Shown here in pieces: positions 22,566 to 28,492 of a DNA stretch of 35,148 nt. A model generated the notes under the pieces. The model made no database searches. It had not been told where the DNA came from and saw only the letters and a list, made by a program, of their open reading frames with translations. A program made the position numbers and the translations under genes. The stretch comes from a virus (Duplodnaviria > Heunggongvirae > Uroviricota > Caudoviricetes): the IMG/VR virus record IMGVR_UViG_2718218452_000003, one strand, 5' to 3'. The number at the start of each line of letters is the position of its first letter. The first letter of the stretch is position 1.

Positions 22566-24317
22566 ATGATTCAGGACGCTTTTGTGCGCCAGCGTGCGCG
22601 ACAACTTTACTGGCAGGGTTATCCGCCCGCAGAAATATCACGTCTGATGGGAATAAACCCGAACACGATTTATGCGTGGAAAAAACGCGACCAGTGGGAT
22701 GAAACGCCACCCGTGCAGCGTGTCACGCAGTCCATCGATGCGCGCCTCATCCAGCTCACTGAAAAACAGAATAAAACAGGTGGTGACTTCAAGGAAATAG
22801 ACCTGCTGACCCGGCAGCTTAAAAAACTGCATGATGGCCAGCCGGATGCGACGGCCACAGGGAAGAAAGGCCGGGCGAAAAAACTCAAAAATCATTTCAC
22901 GCCGGAACAGATTGCCGCACTGCGGGAAAAAATCATCAGCAGGCTGGAGTGGCATCAGCGGGGCTGGTTTGACTCCCTGACCCTTTGCAGGGAAGCCGGG
23001 ATACGTAACAGGATGATCCTGAAATCCCGACAGATTGGGGCGACCTGGTATTTTGCACAGGAAGCACTGCTGATGGCGCTGCGTGACGATGTGGCGCAAC
23101 CTTACCAGCGTAACCAGATTTTTTTGTCTGCGTCGCGTCGTCAGGCGTTCCAGTTTAAAAGCATTATTCAGAAGGCTGCGGCTGAAGTTGATGTGGAGCT
23201 GAAAGGGGGCGATAAAATCATCCTCTCCAACGGCGCAGAGCTGCATTTTCTCGGCACTTCTGCTGCGTCGGCGCAGTCCTATACGGGCAATTTTTATTTT
23301 GATGAATTTTTCTGGGTCAGTCGCTTTGCTGAACTGCGCAAGGTGGCTGGCGCTATGGCAACCCTCAGCGGACTGCGGCGCACCTACTTCTCCACGCCAT
23401 CCACCGAAACGCACGAAGCATACGCCTACTGGAACGGCGACCGCTGGAACGAGAAAAAGGCCACGCATAAACGCCAGCGTTTTTCTGTGGACTGGAAAAC
23501 GCTGCATAACGGGCTTATCTGCCCTGACCGGATGTGGCGGCAAATTGTCACGCTGGAAGATGTGGTTAATCACGGCTGGAAACACACCGATATCGACGAA
23601 ATTCGTGATGAATACACCGAAGACGAGTTCCTCAATCTCTATATGTGTGAGTTTGTCCGCGAAGGGGAATCGGCATTTAACCTGAATATCCTGATTGGCT
23701 GCGGTGTTGACGGATACGACGACTGGAAAGACTGGAAACCTTTTGCTCCCCGCCCGATGGGGAATCGTCCGGTATGGATTGGGTATGACGCAAACGGCAG
23801 CAGTGGCAACGGCGACAGCGGCGCTGTGTCCGTGGTGGTTCCTCCGGCTGTTCCTGGTGGCCGTTTTCGAACGGTGGAGACGCGACGCGTTCAGGGGCTG
23901 GAGTTTGAAGAACAGGCCAGAGTCATTGAAGATTTCACGTATCGCTACAACGTGGAACACATCGGCATTGATGTGACGGGCGGGAACGGGGAGGCTGTTT
24001 ATCAGATAGTGAAACGGTTTTTCCCTGCCGCTATTCCGTACACCTTCACGCTGTCATCAAAACGGTCGCTGGTACTGAAAATGCTGCAAATAATGCGTGC
24101 CGGGCGGTGGGAATACGATCGCGCCGAACGCGAGCTGGTCGCGGCCTTTAACGCCGTGCGTAAGGTGAAAACACCGGGCGGCTTTATCACTTACGAAACG
24201 GACCGCGCGAGGGGGATCAGCCACGGCGACCTTGCGTGGGCAACCATGCTTGCTGTCATTAACGAACCAATTGGCGGCGAAGGAGAAAACGAGCGTTTCA
24301 CGGTTATGGAGTTCTGA
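22566..24317 (+). CDS. P: Terminase ATPase (large) subunit P
   Basis: 583 aa, transcribed divergently from O as in P2. GGGGGA RBS. Confidence 0.9.
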   Translation: MIQDAFVRQRARQLYWQGYPPAEISRLMGINPNTIYAWKKRDQWDETPPVQRVTQSIDARLIQLTEKQNKTGGDFKEIDLLTRQLKKLHDGQPDATATGKKGRAKKLKNHFTPEQIAALREKIISRLEWHQRGWFDSLTLCREAGIRNRMILKSRQIGATWYFAQEALLMALRDDVAQPYQRNQIFLSASRRQAFQFKSIIQKAAAEVDVELKGGDKIILSNGAELHFLGTSAASAQSYTGNFYFDEFFWVSRFAELRKVAGAMATLSGLRRTYFSTPSTETHEAYAYWNGDRWNEKKATHKRQRFSVDWKTLHNGLICPDRMWRQIVTLEDVVNHGWKHTDIDEIRDEYTEDEFLNLYMCEFVREGESAFNLNILIGCGVDGYDDWKDWKPFAPRPMGNRPVWIGYDANGSSGNGDSGAVSVVVPPAVPGGRFRTVETRRVQGLEFEEQARVIEDFTYRYNVEHIGIDVTGGNGEAVYQIVKRFFPAAIPYTFTLSSKRSLVLKMLQIMRAGRWEYDRAERELVAAFNAVRKVKTPGGFITYETDRARGISHGDLAWATMLAVINEPIGGEGENERFTVMEF

Positions 24318-25363
24318 TGAGCAGAAAAAATAAAAAAGTGCGCATGAGTTCACGCATTGATCTCGCTGATGCACTCAGGAAAGAATCGTCGCTCAGTGCA
24401 TTCACTTTTGATGGTCCTTATCGCCTGACCGGGCATGATTTGCTGGACAATATGTACTGTGCTGATAACGGGCGGTGGTATGAAACCCCGGTAGACTGGT
24501 ACGGTCTGGCAAGAGCTGCCCGGCAAACGTCCTGGCATCAGTCTGCGCTTTACTTTAAGCGCAATGTATTGCTCGGCTGCTATATTCCGCACCCGCTGCT
24601 TTCCCGGCAGGATTTCTCGGCGCTGGCGCTGGACTGGTTTGTGTTCGGTAACGCATTCCTTGAGCTTCGAAGCAATATGCTCGGCGAACCGCTTAAATTA
24701 CGGCACGCCCTGGCGAAATACATGCGACGCGGAAGCGATCTTGAATCATGGTGGTATGTGCAGGATGGCAAGGATGCGTTTCAGTTTCGCCCTGGTAAAG
24801 TGTGCCACCTGATGAATCCTGACATTAACCAGGAAATCTACGGCATGCCGGAATATCTTGGCGCATTACTCTCGGCCAGCCTGTCTCATTCGGCGGACAT
24901 GTTCAGAAAACTGTATTACGACAACGGATCCCACGCCGGGTGCATCATCTACATCGGTGCAGCGCAGGTAAACCGCGAAAGCATGGACTCCCTGAAAGAA
25001 ACGCTACAGGGTGCACGTGGTGGTGGTGCGTTTAAAAACGTGCTCATTCATGCCCCCAACGGTGGCAAAGAGGGGGTGCAAATTTTGCCGTTCCAGCAGA
25101 TCACCGCAAAGGATGAGTTCATGAATGTTAAGGCGGCATCCCGTGATGATGTGCTGGCTGCGCACCGCGTTCCGCCGCAACTGATGGGGGCGATGCCGGG
25201 CGAAAAAAGTGCGTTTGGTGATGTGGAGAAGGCCGCGCGGGTTTACGCAATTAACGAGCTGATGCCCGTCATGGAGGCCATGAAGCATATCAATGACTGG
25301 CTTGGCGAAGAGGTGATCCGATTTAACCCTTACGCACTGCTGGACACCCAGCCCACATCCTGA
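24317..25363 (+). CDS. Q: Portal (capsid) protein Q
   Basis: 348 aa. Start overlaps the P stop (TGATG). Confidence 0.9.
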   Translation: MSRKNKKVRMSSRIDLADALRKESSLSAFTFDGPYRLTGHDLLDNMYCADNGRWYETPVDWYGLARAARQTSWHQSALYFKRNVLLGCYIPHPLLSRQDFSALALDWFVFGNAFLELRSNMLGEPLKLRHALAKYMRRGSDLESWWYVQDGKDAFQFRPGKVCHLMNPDINQEIYGMPEYLGALLSASLSHSADMFRKLYYDNGSHAGCIIYIGAAQVNRESMDSLKETLQGARGGGAFKNVLIHAPNGGKEGVQILPFQQITAKDEFMNVKAASRDDVLAAHRVPPQLMGAMPGEKSAFGDVEKAARVYAINELMPVMEAMKHINDWLGEEVIRFNPYALLDTQPTS

Positions 25364-25390
25364 CGCGCTTCGCTTGTCTGCTGCTTCGCC

Positions 25391-25413
25391 GGGGCATAAA
25401 AAATTTATGCCCC
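25391..25413. terminator. GC-clamped hairpin immediately downstream of Q (stem GGGGCATAAA/TTTATGCCCC)
   Basis: 10-bp perfect stem with a 3-nt loop. No clear U-tract follows, so it may be a terminator or a packaging-region structure. The cos site is expected nearby by synteny but was not identified. Confidence 0.4.
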
Positions 25414-25787
25414 GACTCTCCAACTCCTGTATCAATCAGATAATTTCACGACGTCTTCCAGCTTATCGCCATCATCGACGGTCAGGCTCTTACGCAATCC
25501 CACTGCGCTGACTGCATGTTCTCGCCGCCTCAGTGCGATTTTGACGGCCTTATCTGCTACCCCATCAAATCAAAAGTCCTCACGTCTTTTTCATGCTCAG
25601 CGTGAGAAATACAGCCATTCTGTTGTGTCGCTGCGACATCGTTCAGGGGATGCTATTTACCCCCTGAAACGCGGGCTGTTCCCCCGTCACCTGCGCGCAG
25701 AAAAAACGCGTTTTTTTGTGCACGCACGGATCCTTGACGGATCCAGTCGCCACGCGGGCCGGAAGGGTAAAAAGTTGTTCAAAAAAA

Positions 25788-25826
25788 TTGTGCAAATTTG
25801 TGCACTATTGTGCGGTGTATAAAATG
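25788..25826 (+). promoter_or_regulatory. Candidate promoter/operator of the toxin-antitoxin operon
   Basis: Three direct repeats of (A/T)TTGTGC at 25788, 25798 and 25808 with a 10-bp period, followed by a -10-like TATAAAAT at 25819..25826, about 60 nt upstream of the antitoxin start. Confidence 0.45.
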
Positions 25827-25887
25827 AAAATATGGCGGTGTTATTACTGCCCAACAAGCCGTTATACTTACGTTATGGGCGTGCATA

Positions 25888-26244
25888 ATGGAAATGAATA
25901 TGAAAACTGTAACTGATGATGAATTTCGTGAGAACCTGAGTGAAATTCTGGATTACCTTTCTTCCGGTGGCAGTGTCGTTATCACGGCGCAGGGAGGGAA
26001 GGATGTTGTTCTTGCTGGTTCTGATCTTAGTCCTGAAATACGGGCTGTCCTTGGCAAAACCAAAAAACTGCGGGATCAAATAAACAAAATGAAGCAACCA
26101 CTCTTAATAAATGCAGTGAGAGATCTGGAAAAACGTCATCCAGCTCTTGTCGCACAGAGAAAAAAAGGATTGTCTTTTGAAGATGCAATGAAGCGTACAA
26201 GAGAAAAACATGCGGATATCATTAAAAAGCTTGAGGATAACTGA
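25888..26244 (+). CDS. Phd/YefM-like antitoxin
   Basis: N-terminal region FRENLSEILDYLSSGGSVVITAQGGKDVVL fits the Phd/YefM fold pattern. Stop overlaps the toxin start by 1 nt. Alternative ATG starts at 25894 and 25900. Confidence 0.6.
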   Translation: MEMNMKTVTDDEFRENLSEILDYLSSGGSVVITAQGGKDVVLAGSDLSPEIRAVLGKTKKLRDQINKMKQPLLINAVRDLEKRHPALVAQRKKGLSFEDAMKRTREKHADIIKKLEDN

Positions 26245-26651
26245 TGGACATAGTGTTTTTGTCAAAAGAACAAGTAGAACGTATCCATGCTGAAACTTTA
26301 CCCCAGAGCGGAAATGCCAATGACGGGCTACTTGAAGGTGCTTTAAATCGCGTCAGGACACTACACTACTATGAAGGGGTTGATGATATTCATGCTCTGG
26401 CTGCTATGTATTTGATTGGTATAGCCAAGGCTCATGCCTTTCATGATGGGAATAAACGCACAGCTTTTCAGGCTGCATCAATATTTTTAATGATGAACTC
26501 TTCCGAACTTTCAAACTCCCTGCTGCTGGTTAAATTAACGGTGTTTTCAGCAATGGGGATAGCTACCCTTGAGGAAGTTACCTTTGCTTTGAAATTGCTG
26601 TCTGATTATGGCAATGAATTAATCAGCGACTACGAAGAAGATTATATTTAA
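26244..26651 (+). CDS. doc: Doc/Fic-family toxin
   Basis: 135 aa with the Doc-type Fic motif HAFHDGNKRTA. Coupled to the upstream antitoxin. AT-rich. Confidence 0.75.
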   Translation: MDIVFLSKEQVERIHAETLPQSGNANDGLLEGALNRVRTLHYYEGVDDIHALAAMYLIGIAKAHAFHDGNKRTAFQAASIFLMMNSSELSNSLLLVKLTVFSAMGIATLEEVTFALKLLSDYGNELISDYEEDYI

Positions 26652-26817
26652 TGCTGGCATACTCTGTCGTGTTAAGACAACAGCCTTTGCGGAGACAGGG
26701 CAGGGTGCCAGACTTGCCCGCAGCGCGTCTGACATGAGCAGTTATTCATCTTTTTTATTGTTTTTCTCCATGCAGGGCGACAGTGCGCCCCGATAAAATT
26801 AAAAGCCGTCAAATTCG

Positions 26818-27153
26818 TCATTCATGCGTTTTTTCTTCATGGTCTGTCACTTCTCTCCTGATAACTTCATTGCACAAATCAACGCACTCATTGCAGATGT
26901 AAACAGACGGTCCGGCAATCACCTTTGTGACTTCGTACTGGGATTTATTGCAGAAGCTGCAATAAATCGTCTCCTCACCTGAAGTCCATGTTTTGCTGGT
27001 TTCGCCAGACATCAGTTGTTTGAGGTCTTTTTCACGACGAAGAACTATCTGGCCACATTCAGCTATTTTTTGGATGTTGACATTTTCTTCTTTCGCCAGC
27101 GCTTCCATCCGCTCAATCAGTCGCTGCGCTTTTTCTCTGTCAATGCGTTGCAT
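26818..27153 (-). CDS. ClpX-type zinc-finger (C4) domain protein with N-terminal coiled coil
   Basis: C-terminal [35 protein letters not shown] matches the ClpX N-terminal zinc-binding domain (C-x2-C-x18-C-x2-C). No AAA+ module. GGGGG RBS. Confidence 0.7.
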
Positions 27154-27216
27154 TGTGTCCCCCTTGTTTATGTTCCCGGGTTAAAGTCATCAGGGCGGAT
27201 GCGCACTGATGTTGTG

Positions 27217-27528
27217 TTATTCGGGAAATAACGCCCGGATATTTCCAGCCATCTGACTGGTTATCTGTGCGGTTGATACTGGCTGTGACGCGGGGCGTTC
27301 TGTCCTGGTTTGTGTCACTGATAACGCTTCATCATCAGCCCATGCAGCCAGTCGGTAAGCCTCTGCCGGATTCATTTTCAGAAGTGCCAGCCCGGCCAGA
27401 AAAGCCACGCGTTGGCCGCTTTTGCGCGCTTCTGGTGTAAGGCTGTCCAGCCAGGCGCATGCTTCACCTTCGTTCTTGACGGCGGCGGGCTTCAGATAGA
27501 AACTTATCCGTCTGGTTGGTGTCGTCAT
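27217..27528 (-). CDS. parR: ParR-like centromere-binding protein (partner of ParM)
   Basis: 103 aa from ATG 27528, with AAGGAG RBS, directly downstream of the ParM-like gene. Region RRISFYLKP...LDSLTPEARKSGQRVAFLAGLAL resembles R1 ParR / R100 StbB. The track ORF is extended to 27663. Confidence 0.55.
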   Translation of the reverse strand: MTTPTRRISFYLKPAAVKNEGEACAWLDSLTPEARKSGQRVAFLAGLALLKMNPAEAYRLAAWADDEALSVTQTRTERPASQPVSTAQITSQMAGNIRALFPE

Positions 27529-27532
27529 TGGT

Positions 27533-28492
27533 TTACTCCTTGTCCATTGCGTACAGCCCATTAACCAGAGCAAACTGTGGCACCCCGTCCGCGATGAAAG
27601 TCGCATTAACTCCGCAGGCTTCGCGGATAGCGGGTGCCACAATCTCCGCCCCGCCACCGACAACCATCACCCGCCCGTAACCCGAAAAACCCGCCAGCGC
27701 GCGGATCACGCGTTGTTTCAGTGTTTCTTCCTTTTCACGAATAATCGCCATCAGGCTGGCGTAATGCGCGTCATTGTGGATGTGCTGGCGCAGCCAGGCT
27801 TCATTATGGCGATGTTCGATAATGGTATTGGCGATGTGGTGACTGGTGCGCATACCGTTAGTGGCCATCACCGACAGTACGGCATCGGCCATCAGAGAAA
27901 CGCCTACGTGTGGATCGCAAAACACCTGGCTGATACCTGCCAGTTGCCCCTGAACCTTTGCCACATCCAGAGTGGTTCCGCCCAAATCCACAATCAGCAG
28001 GGATTCAAACGGACTCATGTCAGCCAGTGCCTTAAAGCCAGCCGGAATGGATTCAGGCATAACCCGTACGTTACGGATAGTGAATGTTTCGCCGTTCTGG
28101 TACTCCACCGGGCGCATAACGTTCGCTTTTTTGCGGCTGATGTTGGCCATGTCCGGCTGTGCGTTTGTGTCGAAATACTCGCTCAATGGCAGGGTGACAA
28201 CCACATCCACCTCCTGTGGCGTGATGCCTGATTTGACCAGCGCGTGATGAATGGCAATGACATTCACATCGCTGTACTGGTATTGCGTGTCGGTCGTCTG
28301 GACAAAGCGATCGCTGACCGGATCAAAACCATAGCGCACGCCATCAAGCATGTAGTTCGCGGGCTGCGAGCCACCGAACGGCGCAGACCATTCCGACTTG
28401 AAGCTGTTCGGGCTGATGGCGTTGCGGCGTTCGCCGTTCTCAGTCCATGCCAGCTTGATGTTGGTGGAGCCGTCGTCGATACAAATTTTCAT
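27533..28492 (-). CDS. parM: ParM/StbA-like actin-fold partition ATPase
   Basis: 319 aa. MKICIDDGSTNIKLAW, SPNSFK, QYSDVNVIAIHHAL, MPESIPAG, LLIVDLGGTTLD and VMVVGGGAEI follow plasmid R1 ParM blocks. Confidence 0.8.
   Translation of the reverse strand: MKICIDDGSTNIKLAWTENGERRNAISPNSFKSEWSAPFGGSQPANYMLDGVRYGFDPVSDRFVQTTDTQYQYSDVNVIAIHHALVKSGITPQEVDVVVTLPLSEYFDTNAQPDMANISRKKANVMRPVEYQNGETFTIRNVRVMPESIPAGFKALADMSPFESLLIVDLGGTTLDVAKVQGQLAGISQVFCDPHVGVSLMADAVLSVMATNGMRTSHHIANTIIEHRHNEAWLRQHIHNDAHYASLMAIIREKEETLKQRVIRALAGFSGYGRVMVVGGGAEIVAPAIREACGVNATFIADGVPQFALVNGLYAMDKE

What the first reader, a model, noticed from the sequence alone, without database searches (positions are those of the whole stretch)
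25780..26651. Phd/Doc-like toxin-antitoxin pair next to the portal gene and presumed cos region
A Doc/Fic toxin (HAFHDGNKRTA) is coupled to an upstream Phd-like antitoxin with a 1-nt stop/start overlap, preceded by three 10-bp-spaced TTGTGC repeats at a putative promoter. The pair is AT-rich and sits in the tin/old-equivalent cargo position. It may serve addiction or abortive-infection defence.
Basis: partly seen in the sequence, partly recalled or inferred. Interest (0 to 1): 0.5.

Follow-up and report, generated by a model that had tools for sequence, protein, structure and literature searches.

The report
Phd/Doc toxin–antitoxin in P2-like prophage
The two genes are a real but already annotated and catalogued Phd/Doc-type toxin–antitoxin pair, carried as rare cargo next to the DNA-packaging (cos) site of a P2-family E. 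coli prophage, and the TTGTGC repeats in front of it belong to the phage's conserved cos flank, not to the pair.

Summary
The antitoxin ORF is 25900-26244 and the Doc ORF is 26244-26651, joined by a TGATG overlap. The motif HAFHDGNKRTA is present, there are three exact TTGTGC repeats 10 bp apart at 25788-25813, and G+C is low.

Doc is secure. It passes TIGR01550, and its model lies 1.6 Å from P1 Doc. The upstream protein has a Phd-like N-terminal domain and a longer C-terminal part that resembles no solved structure by sequence. It ends in a nearly invariant 24-residue segment.

The window is a P88-like (Xuanwuvirus) prophage, and the pair sits in the known gpQ–gpA hotspot. RefSeq already names both proteins. 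Rousset et al. 2022 list this exact pair as hotspot system 52, with 77 occurrences, not among the systems they report testing.

The repeats are not specific to the toxin-antitoxin pair. Backbone homology to phages with other cargo ends exactly after the third repeat. The array always starts 72 bp after a conserved TGCA next to cos. This holds in 85 viral contigs followed by 45 different sequences. Versions built on a shared TGCA core occupy the same position in P2, 186, PSP3, Wphi and satellite P4.

A relative of the pair on the other side of cos lacks the array. The pair's own control region is probably 25836-25872. Its role, addiction or defence, is untested.

The parts
24317..25363 (+). Portal gene (gpQ homologue, 348 aa). 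This is the left landmark of the hotspot.
   Evidence: PF04860 at 4.4e-18 and TIGR01540 at 3.9e-64. It is annotated as portal in P88.
25675..25693 (.). Inferred cos core, the counterpart of the 19-nt P2 cohesive end. The position is inferred, not mapped.
   Evidence: It aligns without gaps to the reverse complement of the P2/P4 cohesive end (10 of 19 identical). The Serratia relative L135 reads CTCCCCCGCCTCGCC there, which is closer to P2. The block CCCCCGTCACCTGCGCGC is invariant in diverged relatives.
25692..25726 (.). Inverted repeat plus T-run, ending in the first TTGTGCA element. The TGCA 'anchor' is at 25719-25722.
   Evidence: Inverted repeats I1 and I5. The columns TTTT..TGCA are invariant across the window, Serratia, Edwardsiella, P2 and P4.
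25788..25813 (+). Three TTGTGC repeats spaced 10 bp apart. This is the conserved array of the right flank of cos and is phage backbone, not part of the toxin-antitoxin cassette.
   Evidence: 0 expected by chance. It starts exactly 72 bp after the anchor TGCA in 85 of 120 viral contigs and in 12 named elements, including P2, 186, PSP3, Wphi (71 bp) and P4. Backbone homology ends at 25813.
25814..26676 (+). Toxin-antitoxin cassette: leader, antitoxin and toxin. This is the variable cargo unit.
   Evidence: Homology to the ES4-type prophage breaks at 25813/25814 and resumes at 26677. G+C is 40.8%. It occurs in 19 of 5426 complete E. coli genomes at 99.8% identity or more.
25798..25825 (+). Candidate promoter a: second repeat TTGTGC as the -35, a 16-nt spacer, and TAAAAT as the -10.
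   Evidence: Read from the sequence, 8 of 12 consensus matches. The scan tool did not call it. The -10 is only partly kept in relatives (TAAAAC, TGAAAC).
25836..25872 (+). Candidate promoter b and probable operator. The conserved boxes are C(G)GTGTTATTA (25836-25846, TTATTA as -35) and CGTTATACTTACG (25860-25872, TATACT as -10).
   Evidence: These are the only strongly conserved leader blocks in 8 loci that carry the pair, with antitoxin identity of 53-100%. This is inference; no transcript data exist.
25900..26244 (+). Antitoxin (114 aa). It has a Phd/YefM-type N-terminal domain (aa 1-42), a variable helical linker, and a nearly invariant C-terminal segment LSFEDAMKRTREKHADIIKKLEDN.
   Evidence: - PF02604 scores 29.2 bits against a cut-off of 29.8, over aa 5-42 only.
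- PHROG 'Phd-like antitoxin' at 2.4e-4.
- The model's N-domain lies 1.0 Å from P1 Phd 4zlx over 39 columns.
- Conservation across homologues.
26244..26651 (+). Doc toxin (135 aa, Fic fold). The catalytic motif HAFHDGNKRTA is at nt 26433-26465.
   Evidence: - TIGR01550 scores 53.6 bits against a cut-off of 38.65, and PF02661 gives 3.5e-11.
- PHROG 'Doc-like toxin' at 2.9e-26.
- P1 Doc 3k33 at E = 6e-13.
- The model has pLDDT 86, TM 0.81/0.87 and rmsd 1.6 Å to 3k33_A.

Best explanation
**What it is.** The locus is an ordinary type II toxin-antitoxin operon of the Phd/Doc class. It is carried as an 863-bp AT-rich cargo cassette (25814-26676) in the cos-proximal gpQ–gpA hotspot of a P88-like, P2-family prophage of E. 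coli.

**Molecular mechanism (inferred from P1 Doc).**
- Doc is a Fic-fold kinase that phosphorylates EF-Tu Thr382 and stops translation.
- The antitoxin is translated first and coupled through the TGATG overlap. It neutralises Doc with its invariant C-terminal segment.
- As a dimer, its Phd-like N-terminal domain represses the operon at the conserved GTTAT-containing boxes in the cassette's own leader (25836-25872).
- When antitoxin synthesis stops, the labile antitoxin decays and Doc arrests the cell. This could follow loss of the cassette or prophage, or host shut-off by an infecting phage.

**The repeats.** The three TTGTGC repeats are not part of this module. They are the P88-lineage form of a conserved three-unit array in the right flank of cos of P2-family phages and P4. 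The array most likely belongs to the extended packaging signal. At most it lends a -35-like hexamer to read-out into the cargo.

**Biological pay-off (inferred, not shown).** My estimates are abortive-infection defence about 0.4, retention of the prophage or cassette ('death on curing') about 0.35, and no measurable benefit about 0.25.
For: **Doc identity**
- The curated HMM is passed, and the PHROG match is 2.9e-26.
- The alignment to P1 Doc covers aa 23-119 and includes the motif.
- The fold match has TM 0.81/0.87.
- The catalytic residues are invariant in 31 homologues.

**Antitoxin**
- The N-domain matches P1 Phd structurally and is 33% identical to a canonical 73-aa Phd over aa 1-42.
- The C-terminal 24 residues are nearly invariant. 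Their motif KHAxIIKxLEDK/N is shared by distant long-form relatives, of which the one looked up (P0113) pairs with a 135-aa Doc.

**Context**
- The window matches E. coli C7 at 100%, in a P2-like prophage between portal and gpA.
- All 7 antitoxin homologues I looked up lie next to portal/cos of P2-like prophages.
- The cassette is rare cargo, present in 19 of 5426 genomes.
- It is listed as system 52, 'PhdYeFM_antitox | Fic', with 77 occurrences, in Rousset 2022 Table S5B.

**Array is not part of the pair:**

**Mechanism of P1 Phd/Doc:** PMC4803016.
Against: - No experiment exists for this pair. Toxicity, the target and neutralisation are all inferred by homology at about 30% identity.
- The Pfam Phd match is just below the gathering score and covers only the N-terminal third.
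- The C-terminal two thirds have no sequence similarity to P1 Phd.
- No PADLOC defence model fits. There are only weak Fic-domain hits to candidate systems.
- I found no paper showing Phd/Doc-mediated phage defence.
- The promoter is not established. Neither candidate reaches the scan threshold.
- Candidate promoter a would use the second repeat as its -35, so some functional overlap with the array cannot be excluded.
- The packaging role of the array is inference from conservation only.
Confidence: 0.8

Rival explanations
1. One reading: the three TTGTGC repeats are the operator/promoter of the pair. The Phd-like antitoxin would bind them to autoregulate the operon.
For: - The repeats lie 87-112 bp upstream of the start codon.
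- The second repeat sits 16 nt from a TAAAAT hexamer.
- The repeats are conserved in diverged phages that carry the pair in this orientation.
Against: - The same array is conserved in phages with unrelated cargo, often on the opposite strand. The homology break falls exactly after the third repeat.
- 45 different downstream sequences follow it in 85 portal-linked contigs, and only one of those contigs has this pair.
- Positional counterparts exist in P2, 186, PSP3, Wphi and P4, which lack this pair.
- The homologous pair in L133/L134 has no array within 260 bp upstream. It has its own palindrome, ATTACGT-N8-ACGTAAT, around GATAAT.
- P1 Phd binds inverted repeats, not direct repeats (PDB 4zm0 title).
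Confidence: 0.07
2. The pair's main selected function is anti-phage defence by abortive infection. An infecting phage shuts off host expression, the labile antitoxin decays, Doc blocks EF-Tu, and the infected cell stops translating before the phage completes its cycle.
For: - It sits in a hotspot where Rousset et al. found more than a third of cloned systems to be active.
- The hotspot holds other toxin-antitoxin pairs: HicAB next to the pair in Serratia and a second, P1-like Phd/Doc in L022/L076.
- The cassette is at least 99.8% identical across 19 E. coli genomes whose flanks differ by up to about 2%. This is consistent with recent spread.
Against: - Rousset 2022 does not report testing it. 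Fic/Phd occur only in the locus and system tables.
- No PADLOC model fits.
- I found no published defence phenotype for any Phd/Doc.
- The cassette is rare, in 0.35% of genomes.
Confidence: 0.4
3. The pair acts mainly as a selfish retention module ('death on curing'). It penalises loss of the prophage, of an episomal form of it, or of the cassette itself by recombination in the hotspot, with no role against other phages.
For: - This is the classical role of P1 Phd/Doc.
- The phage carries ParM/StbB partition genes.
- Rousset et al. suggest that such phages may be kept as plasmids.
- A 34.5-kb record deposited as a plasmid carries the conserved P88-type cos flank. I did not inspect the rest of that record (H19).
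- The family has stayed at this site across genera.
Against: - All 22 E. coli copies are chromosomal.
- Most relatives that carry the pair lack ParM.
- Post-segregational killing by chromosomal toxin-antitoxin pairs is generally weak (background knowledge).
Confidence: 0.35
4. The genes are an inactive remnant: a decayed toxin, or an orphan antitoxin with a non-toxic Fic protein.
For: The Pfam Phd score is below the cut-off. The C-terminal part of the antitoxin is unlike that of Phd.
Against: - Both ORFs are intact, coupled and at least 99.8% identical in 19 genomes.
- The catalytic motif is invariant.
- The Doc model is confident and superposes on P1 Doc.
- The toxin (about 87% identity) is more conserved than the antitoxin (about 61-63%) between relatives, as is usual in active pairs.
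Confidence: 0.05

Closest known systems
Phage P1 Phd/Doc addiction module (PDB 3k33, 3dd7, 3kh2, 4zm0)
   Same: - Doc has the same fold (rmsd 1.6 Å, about 31% identity) and the Doc-type motif HxFx(D/N)(A/G)NKR.
- The antitoxin lies upstream and its N-terminal domain has the Phd fold.
- The genes are coupled.
- Both are carried by a temperate phage.
   Different: - The antitoxin is 114 aa rather than 73.
- It has an extra helical linker of about 40 residues and a C-terminal segment (LSFEDAMKRTREKHADIIKKLEDN) with no sequence similarity to the Doc-binding helix of P1 Phd.
- The host element is an integrated P2-family prophage, not a plasmid prophage.
- The operator is unknown.
System 52 'PhdYeFM_antitox | Fic' of the P2-like gpA–gpQ hotspot (Rousset et al. 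2022, Cell Host Microbe, Table S5B; PMC9122126)
   Same: The antitoxin sequence is identical. The Doc is the same apart from one extra N-terminal Met in their entry. The position is the same. It is labelled 'Toxin-antitoxin system', with 77 occurrences.
   Different: Nothing differs: this is the same entity. The paper does not report testing it for defence or toxicity.
P2 old/tin lysogenic-conversion genes
   Same: - They occupy the same genomic slot, between cos and gpA.
- They have the same outward orientation from cos.
- The promoter region directly follows the three-unit TGCA array. In P2 the third unit overlaps the -35 TTGAAT of the old-tin promoter (my reading together with the annotated transcript starts).
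   Different: The proteins and mechanisms are unrelated (OLD nuclease/ATPase, Tin). Their phage exclusion is experimentally proven.
Canonical short Phd/Doc in the same hotspot (IMG/VR loci L022, L076)
   Same: It is a Doc (43% identical) with a Phd (33% identical over aa 1-42) in the same hotspot of a P2-like phage.
   Different: It has a P1-like 73-aa antitoxin and the opposite orientation, with the Doc stop codon facing the array. This is a separate acquisition.

Membership tests
Doc toxin (Fic-fold kinase; TIGR01550 / PF02661) | Match to the curated family model above its cut-off | tested here: met
   TIGR01550 scores 53.6 bits against 38.65, and PF02661 scores 44.2 against 24.
Doc toxin (Fic-fold kinase; TIGR01550 / PF02661) | Doc-type active-site motif HxFx(D/N)(A/G)NKR, with K where AMPylating Fic proteins have G | tested here: met
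   H64-A-F-H-D-G-N-K-R72 aligns to P1 HIFNDANKR. H, F, D, N, K and R are invariant in 31 homologues.
Doc toxin (Fic-fold kinase; TIGR01550 / PF02661) | All-helical Doc fold | tested here: met
   The AF2 model has pLDDT 86.4 and six helices. Against 3k33_A it gives TM 0.81/0.87 and rmsd 1.6 Å over 120 columns.
Doc toxin (Fic-fold kinase; TIGR01550 / PF02661) | Growth arrest through phosphorylation of EF-Tu Thr382 | not testable with these tools
   This needs a toxicity assay and phospho-mapping.
Phd/YefM antitoxin (PF02604 / TIGR01552) | Match to the curated family model above its cut-off | tested here: not met
   PF02604 scores 29.2 bits against 29.8, over aa 5-42 only. TIGR01552 scores 16.6 against 20.8. 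This is a marginal miss. RefSeq still names the protein Phd/YefM.
Phd/YefM antitoxin (PF02604 / TIGR01552) | N-terminal DNA-binding/dimerisation domain with the Phd/YefM fold | tested here: met
   The model (pLDDT about 80 in aa 1-50) matches 4zlx_A and 3hry with rmsd 1.0-1.2 Å over 39 columns, 33% identity and probability 1.00.
Phd/YefM antitoxin (PF02604 / TIGR01552) | C-terminal toxin-binding segment related to that of Phd | tested here: not met
   There is no sequence similarity beyond aa 42 to P1 Phd or to the short Phd of L022. A different, nearly invariant C-terminal motif is present. Functional equivalence is inferred.
Type II toxin-antitoxin operon | Two small adjacent genes, antitoxin first, translationally coupled, and co-inherited | tested here: met
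   The TGATG overlap is present. The pair keeps the same overlap and the same 135-aa Doc in every locus found through an antitoxin homologue: seven close homologues and one distant relative.
Type II toxin-antitoxin operon | Autoregulation by antitoxin binding at its own promoter | not testable with these tools
   Only candidate conserved boxes at 25836-25872 were identified.
Cargo of the P2-like gpQ–gpA (cos-proximal) hotspot | Lies between the portal/cos region and gpA, and is variable among otherwise homologous phages | tested here: met
   Gene order. Homology breaks at 25813/25814 and 26676/26677. About 1105 genomes share the flank and 19 share the cassette. The pair is listed in Rousset Table S5.
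Known anti-phage defence system (PADLOC-DB v2) | Proteins match the models of a described defence system | tested here: not met
   There are only weak Fic-domain hits to candidate systems PDC-S23 and PDC-M59B (E = 7e-6 to 6e-4) and nothing for the antitoxin.

The most novel reading that the evidence does not exclude
There are two readings that the evidence does not exclude.

(a) The long-form antitoxin is more than a Doc plug. Its extra linker of about 40 residues and its distinct invariant C-terminus might act as a sensor of an invading phage. The cassette would then be the first Phd/Doc-type abortive-infection defence system.

(b) Apart from the pair, the three-unit TGCA array sits at a fixed 72 bp from the cos-proximal TGCA in P2, 186, PSP3, Wphi, P88-like phages and satellite P4. 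It may be an undescribed terminase-recognition part of cos lying beyond the 'conserved 55 bp'. That would explain why cargo junctions in the hotspot stop exactly there.

The probability given is for (a).
Probability: 0.12. Interest if true: 0.55.

Novelty: already known. Interest (0 to 1): 0.2.

Why it matters
For the pair itself it matters little. It adds one more annotated, untested Phd/Doc module to a hotspot already described as a reservoir of defence and toxin-antitoxin cargo. If it proved to be defensive, it would extend the list of toxin classes used in abortive infection to the EF-Tu kinase Doc.

The more useful outcome is negative. The repeats should not be used as the operator in follow-up experiments. 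They mark the conserved edge of the cos region, which defines where cargo can be swapped in P2-family phages. They may also matter for the design of P2/P4 cosmids and transducing particles. Longer cos flanks raised transduction more than 1000-fold in PMC9594776.

Tried and rejected
- **Operator hypothesis for the TTGTGC repeats.** Rejected on comparative grounds.
- **Repeats as a minus-strand intrinsic terminator.** The scan called GTGCA-CAAATT-TGCAC plus a T-run. Rejected because variants such as TTGTGCAAAATTGTGCGGGTTTGTGC keep the hexamers but lose the stem.
- **Repeats as a parC-type centromere for ParM/StbB.** Rejected because the array is present in relatives without ParM.
- **Repeats as a repressor site shared with the immunity region.** No TTGTGC pair occurs elsewhere in the window.
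- **Ends of the linear P88_4B11 record (window about 25769/25770) as the cos cut.** Not adopted, because the block homologous to the P2 cohesive end lies at 25675-25693.
- **Upstream ATG 25888 as the antitoxin start.** Rejected.
- **Rfam scan of 25300-27300.** Only a chance sub-threshold hit.
- **Terminator downstream of Doc.** Folding is no better than shuffles, and no terminator was called there.
- **Ziermann & Calendar 1990.** I tried to read it to see whether the array is already described, but it is not held.
- **Literature search for Phd/Doc in phage defence.** Nothing specific.
- **Complex prediction of antitoxin with Doc.** Not possible with the tools.
Full report
**Observation**

The region holds two same-strand ORFs, 25888/25900..26244 and 26244..26651. 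The stop TGA and the start ATG share one base (TGATG), and a GAGG lies 7 nt upstream of the second start. The second protein contains HAFHDGNKRTA at residues 64-74.

Three exact TTGTGC hexamers lie at 25788, 25798 and 25808. The hexamer is not enriched in the window (20 found, 32 expected). The phased triple occurs once against 0 in 100 shuffles.

The segment is AT-rich. The cassette has 40.8% G+C, against 51.7% for the window and 53-56% for its flanks. The gene to the left (24317-25363) is a phage portal.

One correction applies. The antitoxin starts at 25900, not 25888. Homologues L132 and L136 have lost the upstream ATG but keep the GGAAA ribosome-binding site, and RefSeq uses the same start.

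**Where the window comes from**

The stretch 25400-26900 is 100% identical to the chromosome of E. coli strain C7. It lies in a P2-family prophage with this gene order: tail and head genes, terminase, portal, the pair, a ClpX-zinc-finger gene, StbB, ParM, the replication endonuclease gpA, the immunity region and integrase, then btuC. The closest named phages are P88 and its relatives (Xuanwuvirus, Peduoviridae).

The slot between portal/cos and gpA is where P2 carries old and tin. Rousset et al. 2022 describe it as a hotspot with 1,650 gene arrangements in 18,150 loci. About a quarter of those loci carry a plasmid-partition system, as this phage does.

**The toxin**

- The toxin passes the curated Doc model TIGR01550 (53.6 bits against a cut-off of 38.65) and Pfam Fic/DOC.
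- It matches the PHROG 'Doc-like toxin' at 2.9e-26.
- It aligns to P1 Doc over residues 23-119 at E = 6e-13, with HIFNDANKRTA facing HAFHDGNKRTA.
- In 31 homologues from Enterobacterales and others, H64, F66, D68, N70, K71 and R72 are invariant.
- An AlphaFold model (pLDDT 86.4) superposes on P1 Doc 3k33_A with TM 0.81/0.87 and rmsd 1.6 Å at 31% identity.

Membership of the Doc family is therefore met on every feature that can be tested in silico.

**The antitoxin**

Pfam PhdYeFM scores 29.2 bits, just under the 29.8 gathering score, and covers only residues 5-42. TIGR01552 is also below its cut-off. Sequence search of the PDB finds P1 Phd only at E of about 1.

The model (pLDDT 70 overall, about 80 in the first 50 residues) has the beta-alpha-beta-beta core. 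Its first 39 columns superpose on the P1 Phd N-domain at 1.0 Å with 33% identity. The protein is also 33% identical over residues 1-42 to a canonical 73-aa Phd found in the same hotspot of another phage.

Beyond residue 42 nothing resembles Phd. There is a variable helical stretch and then 24 residues, LSFEDAMKRTREKHADIIKKLEDN, that are nearly invariant in 15 homologues.

The close family is small, with 19 clusters at 90% identity. A profile search finds about 60 more distant 'long-form' relatives of 105-135 aa. The seven whose sequences I read end in KHAxIIKxLEDK/N. The one I could look up is followed by a 135-aa Doc with the same one-base overlap.

I infer that this conserved tail is the Doc-neutralising element, as the C-terminal helix of Phd is in P1 (PMC4803016). 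That step is not shown.

**Already known**

RefSeq names the two proteins 'type II toxin-antitoxin system Phd/YefM family antitoxin' (WP_001561011) and 'death-on-curing family toxin' (WP_001561009).

[quoted passage not shown] Table S5B lists system 52, 'PhdYeFM_antitox | Fic', with 77 occurrences. It has exactly this antitoxin sequence and this Doc with one extra N-terminal Met, and it is labelled 'Toxin-antitoxin system'.

The main text does not mention the pair. Fic and Phd appear only in the locus and system tables, so I take it as untested.

**Distribution**

The cassette occurs in 19 of 5426 complete E. coli genomes. Every copy is chromosomal and at least 99.8% identical. It is absent from 50,697 deposited phage genomes. 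On plasmids there is only a distant Doc. By contrast, the cos flank 25400-25813 is present in about 1105 genomes.

Against an ES4-type prophage, homology breaks at 25813/25814 and resumes at 26677, which delimits an 863-bp cassette.

All seven antitoxin homologues that I located lie next to the portal/cos region of P2-like prophages. They share 53-86% identity and the named ones come from Edwardsiella piscicida and Serratia ureilytica. So the family is a long-term resident of this site.

**The repeats**

1. The alignment of the window with P88, ES4 and a carrier of the pair shows backbone identity running exactly through the third TTGTGC and ending there. The TATAAAAT that follows belongs to the cassette. 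P88 and ES4 carry unrelated cargo on the opposite strand.
2. A scan of IMG/VR for TTGTGC-N4-TTGTGC-N4-TTGTGC returned 120 loci. Of these, 85 lie 300-425 bp downstream of a P2-type portal of 68-100% identity, or about 1000-1050 bp where an insertion intervenes. They are followed by 45 different 12-mers. Only one carries this pair.
3. The TGCA that follows the hairpin and T-run next to cos (window 25719-25722) serves as an anchor. The array starts exactly 72 bp later in 85 of the 120 loci and 71 bp later in one more.
4. The same spacing holds in the window, P88, ES4, four diverged prophages, 186, PSP3, P2 and satellite P4, and it is 71 bp in Wphi. In the classical phages the unit is ATGCA instead of GTGCA.
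5. In 186 the array lies between an annotated terminator and cos, with no outward gene.
6. In L133/L134 a homologous pair sits on the other side of cos. It has no array within 260 bp upstream and has its own palindrome, ATTACGT-N8-ACGTAAT, around GATAAT.
7. In L022/L076 a P1-like Phd/Doc lies in the hotspot in the opposite orientation.

The array is thus a backbone feature of the right flank of cos. P4 is said to share with P2 only the 55-bp packaging signal (PMC9594776; PMC9122126). For that reason I think the array most likely belongs to an extended packaging signal, for example terminase recognition. This is inference. In P4 two of the units also form a hairpin downstream of psu, so the case is not clean.

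**The pair's own control region**

In eight loci that carry the pair, the leader between the array and the start codon is conserved mainly in two boxes. One is C(G)GTGTTATTA (25836-25846) and the other is CGTTATACTTACG (25860-25872).

Together they form a plausible sigma-70 promoter, TTATTA-16 nt-TATACT. L132 has a perfect TATAAT there.

The alternative promoter uses the second repeat as its -35, TTGTGC-16 nt-TAAAAT. It has an equal consensus score (8 of 12), but its -10 is poorly conserved. Neither was called by the scan.

I favour the conserved boxes as promoter and operator. I cannot exclude that transcription also starts at the array edge, as it appears to do for old-tin in P2. There the third ATGCA unit overlaps the -35 TTGAAT (my reading).

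**Mechanism and role**

The molecular steps are inferred from P1 Doc. Doc phosphorylates EF-Tu Thr382 and arrests translation. The antitoxin neutralises Doc and represses the operon. The antitoxin is labile, so Doc is released when its synthesis stops.

I put 0.8 on the overall reading that this is a functional Phd/Doc-class pair and that the array does not belong to it.

For the biological pay-off I estimate abortive-infection defence at about 0.4, retention of the prophage or cassette at about 0.35, and no benefit at about 0.25. The hotspot context favours defence. No PADLOC model fits, and I found no published Phd/Doc defence phenotype.

**Verdict**

The pair is already annotated and catalogued, so its novelty is nil and its interest low. 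The conserved TGCA array at a fixed distance from cos across P2-family phages and P4 is the only point that may deserve follow-up. I could not check whether the 1990 cos paper already describes it.

Noticed in passing
window 25719-25722 and 25788-25813; also L002, L003, L007 (P2), L010, L132, L135, L136, L139 (P4), L140 (186), L141 (PSP3), L142 (Wphi): A three-unit array, (A/G)TGCAA-N4-(A/G)TGCA(C/T)-N3-6-TGC(A), begins exactly 72 bp after a conserved T-run+TGCA next to cos (71 bp in Wphi). This holds in all P2-family phages examined and in satellite P4. Hotspot cargo junctions start immediately after it. It may be an extended part of the packaging signal.
   Followed up: partly
window 26818-27153 (-): A 111-aa protein consists of an N-terminal region of about 60 aa plus a stand-alone ClpX C4 zinc-finger (PF06689, 3.1e-17; PHROG 6797). 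It is backbone-like: present in P88 and ES4 without the pair, and deleted in two carriers of the pair (300444, UPEC132). From memory, P1 Phd is a ClpXP substrate, so a free ClpX N-domain next to a Phd/Doc pair is curious. The distribution argues against a functional link.
   Followed up: partly
window 27217-28492 (-): A ParM (StbA) and StbB plasmid-partition pair sits inside a chromosomally integrated P2-like prophage. A 34,461-bp E. coli record deposited as a plasmid (NZ_CP148288.1) carries the same cos flank, which suggests an episomal form.
   Followed up: no
L022 8101-8765 and L076 (IMG/VR contigs): A second, canonical P1-like Phd (73 aa) and Doc (127 aa, 43% identical to the window's Doc) occupy the same hotspot in the opposite orientation. 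The Doc stop codon lies about 60 bp from the array. Doc-type pairs were therefore captured at this site at least twice.
   Followed up: partly
L133 4001-4743 and L134: In one lineage the homologous pair (antitoxin 54-55% identical) lies between cos and the portal gene, on the other side of cos. It is preceded by the palindrome ATTACGT-N8-ACGTAAT around GATAAT and followed by a 116-aa ORF that overlaps the portal gene end.
   Followed up: partly
L135 4875-5515 (Serratia ureilytica prophage): A HicA/HicB toxin-antitoxin pair sits directly next to the Phd/Doc pair in the same hotspot, so two such modules lie side by side.
   Followed up: no
L004 1865-2389; IMG/VR loci L046, L055, L061, L095, L119, L128: A second small insertion site lies between the portal stop and cos. 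In strain 300444 (L004) the gap holds a 525-nt hypothetical gene. Six of the 85 portal-linked viral contigs have a portal-to-array distance of about 1000-1050 bp instead of about 424; I did not inspect what fills it.
   Followed up: no
L005/L006 (NC_049391.1, P88_4B11) ends; window about 25769/25770: The linear record of P88_4B11 is cut between GGAAGGGCA and AAAATTCGTT. That point is about 77 bp to the right of the block homologous to the P2 cohesive end. Either this lineage cuts elsewhere or the record ends are not the physical ends.
   Followed up: no
window 24317-25363 versus NZ_CP010240.1 locus tag RG29_RS20230: RefSeq marks the portal gene of strain C7 as frameshifted (1048 nt). In the window the ORF is an intact 348 aa and is identical to portals in many viral contigs.
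   Followed up: no
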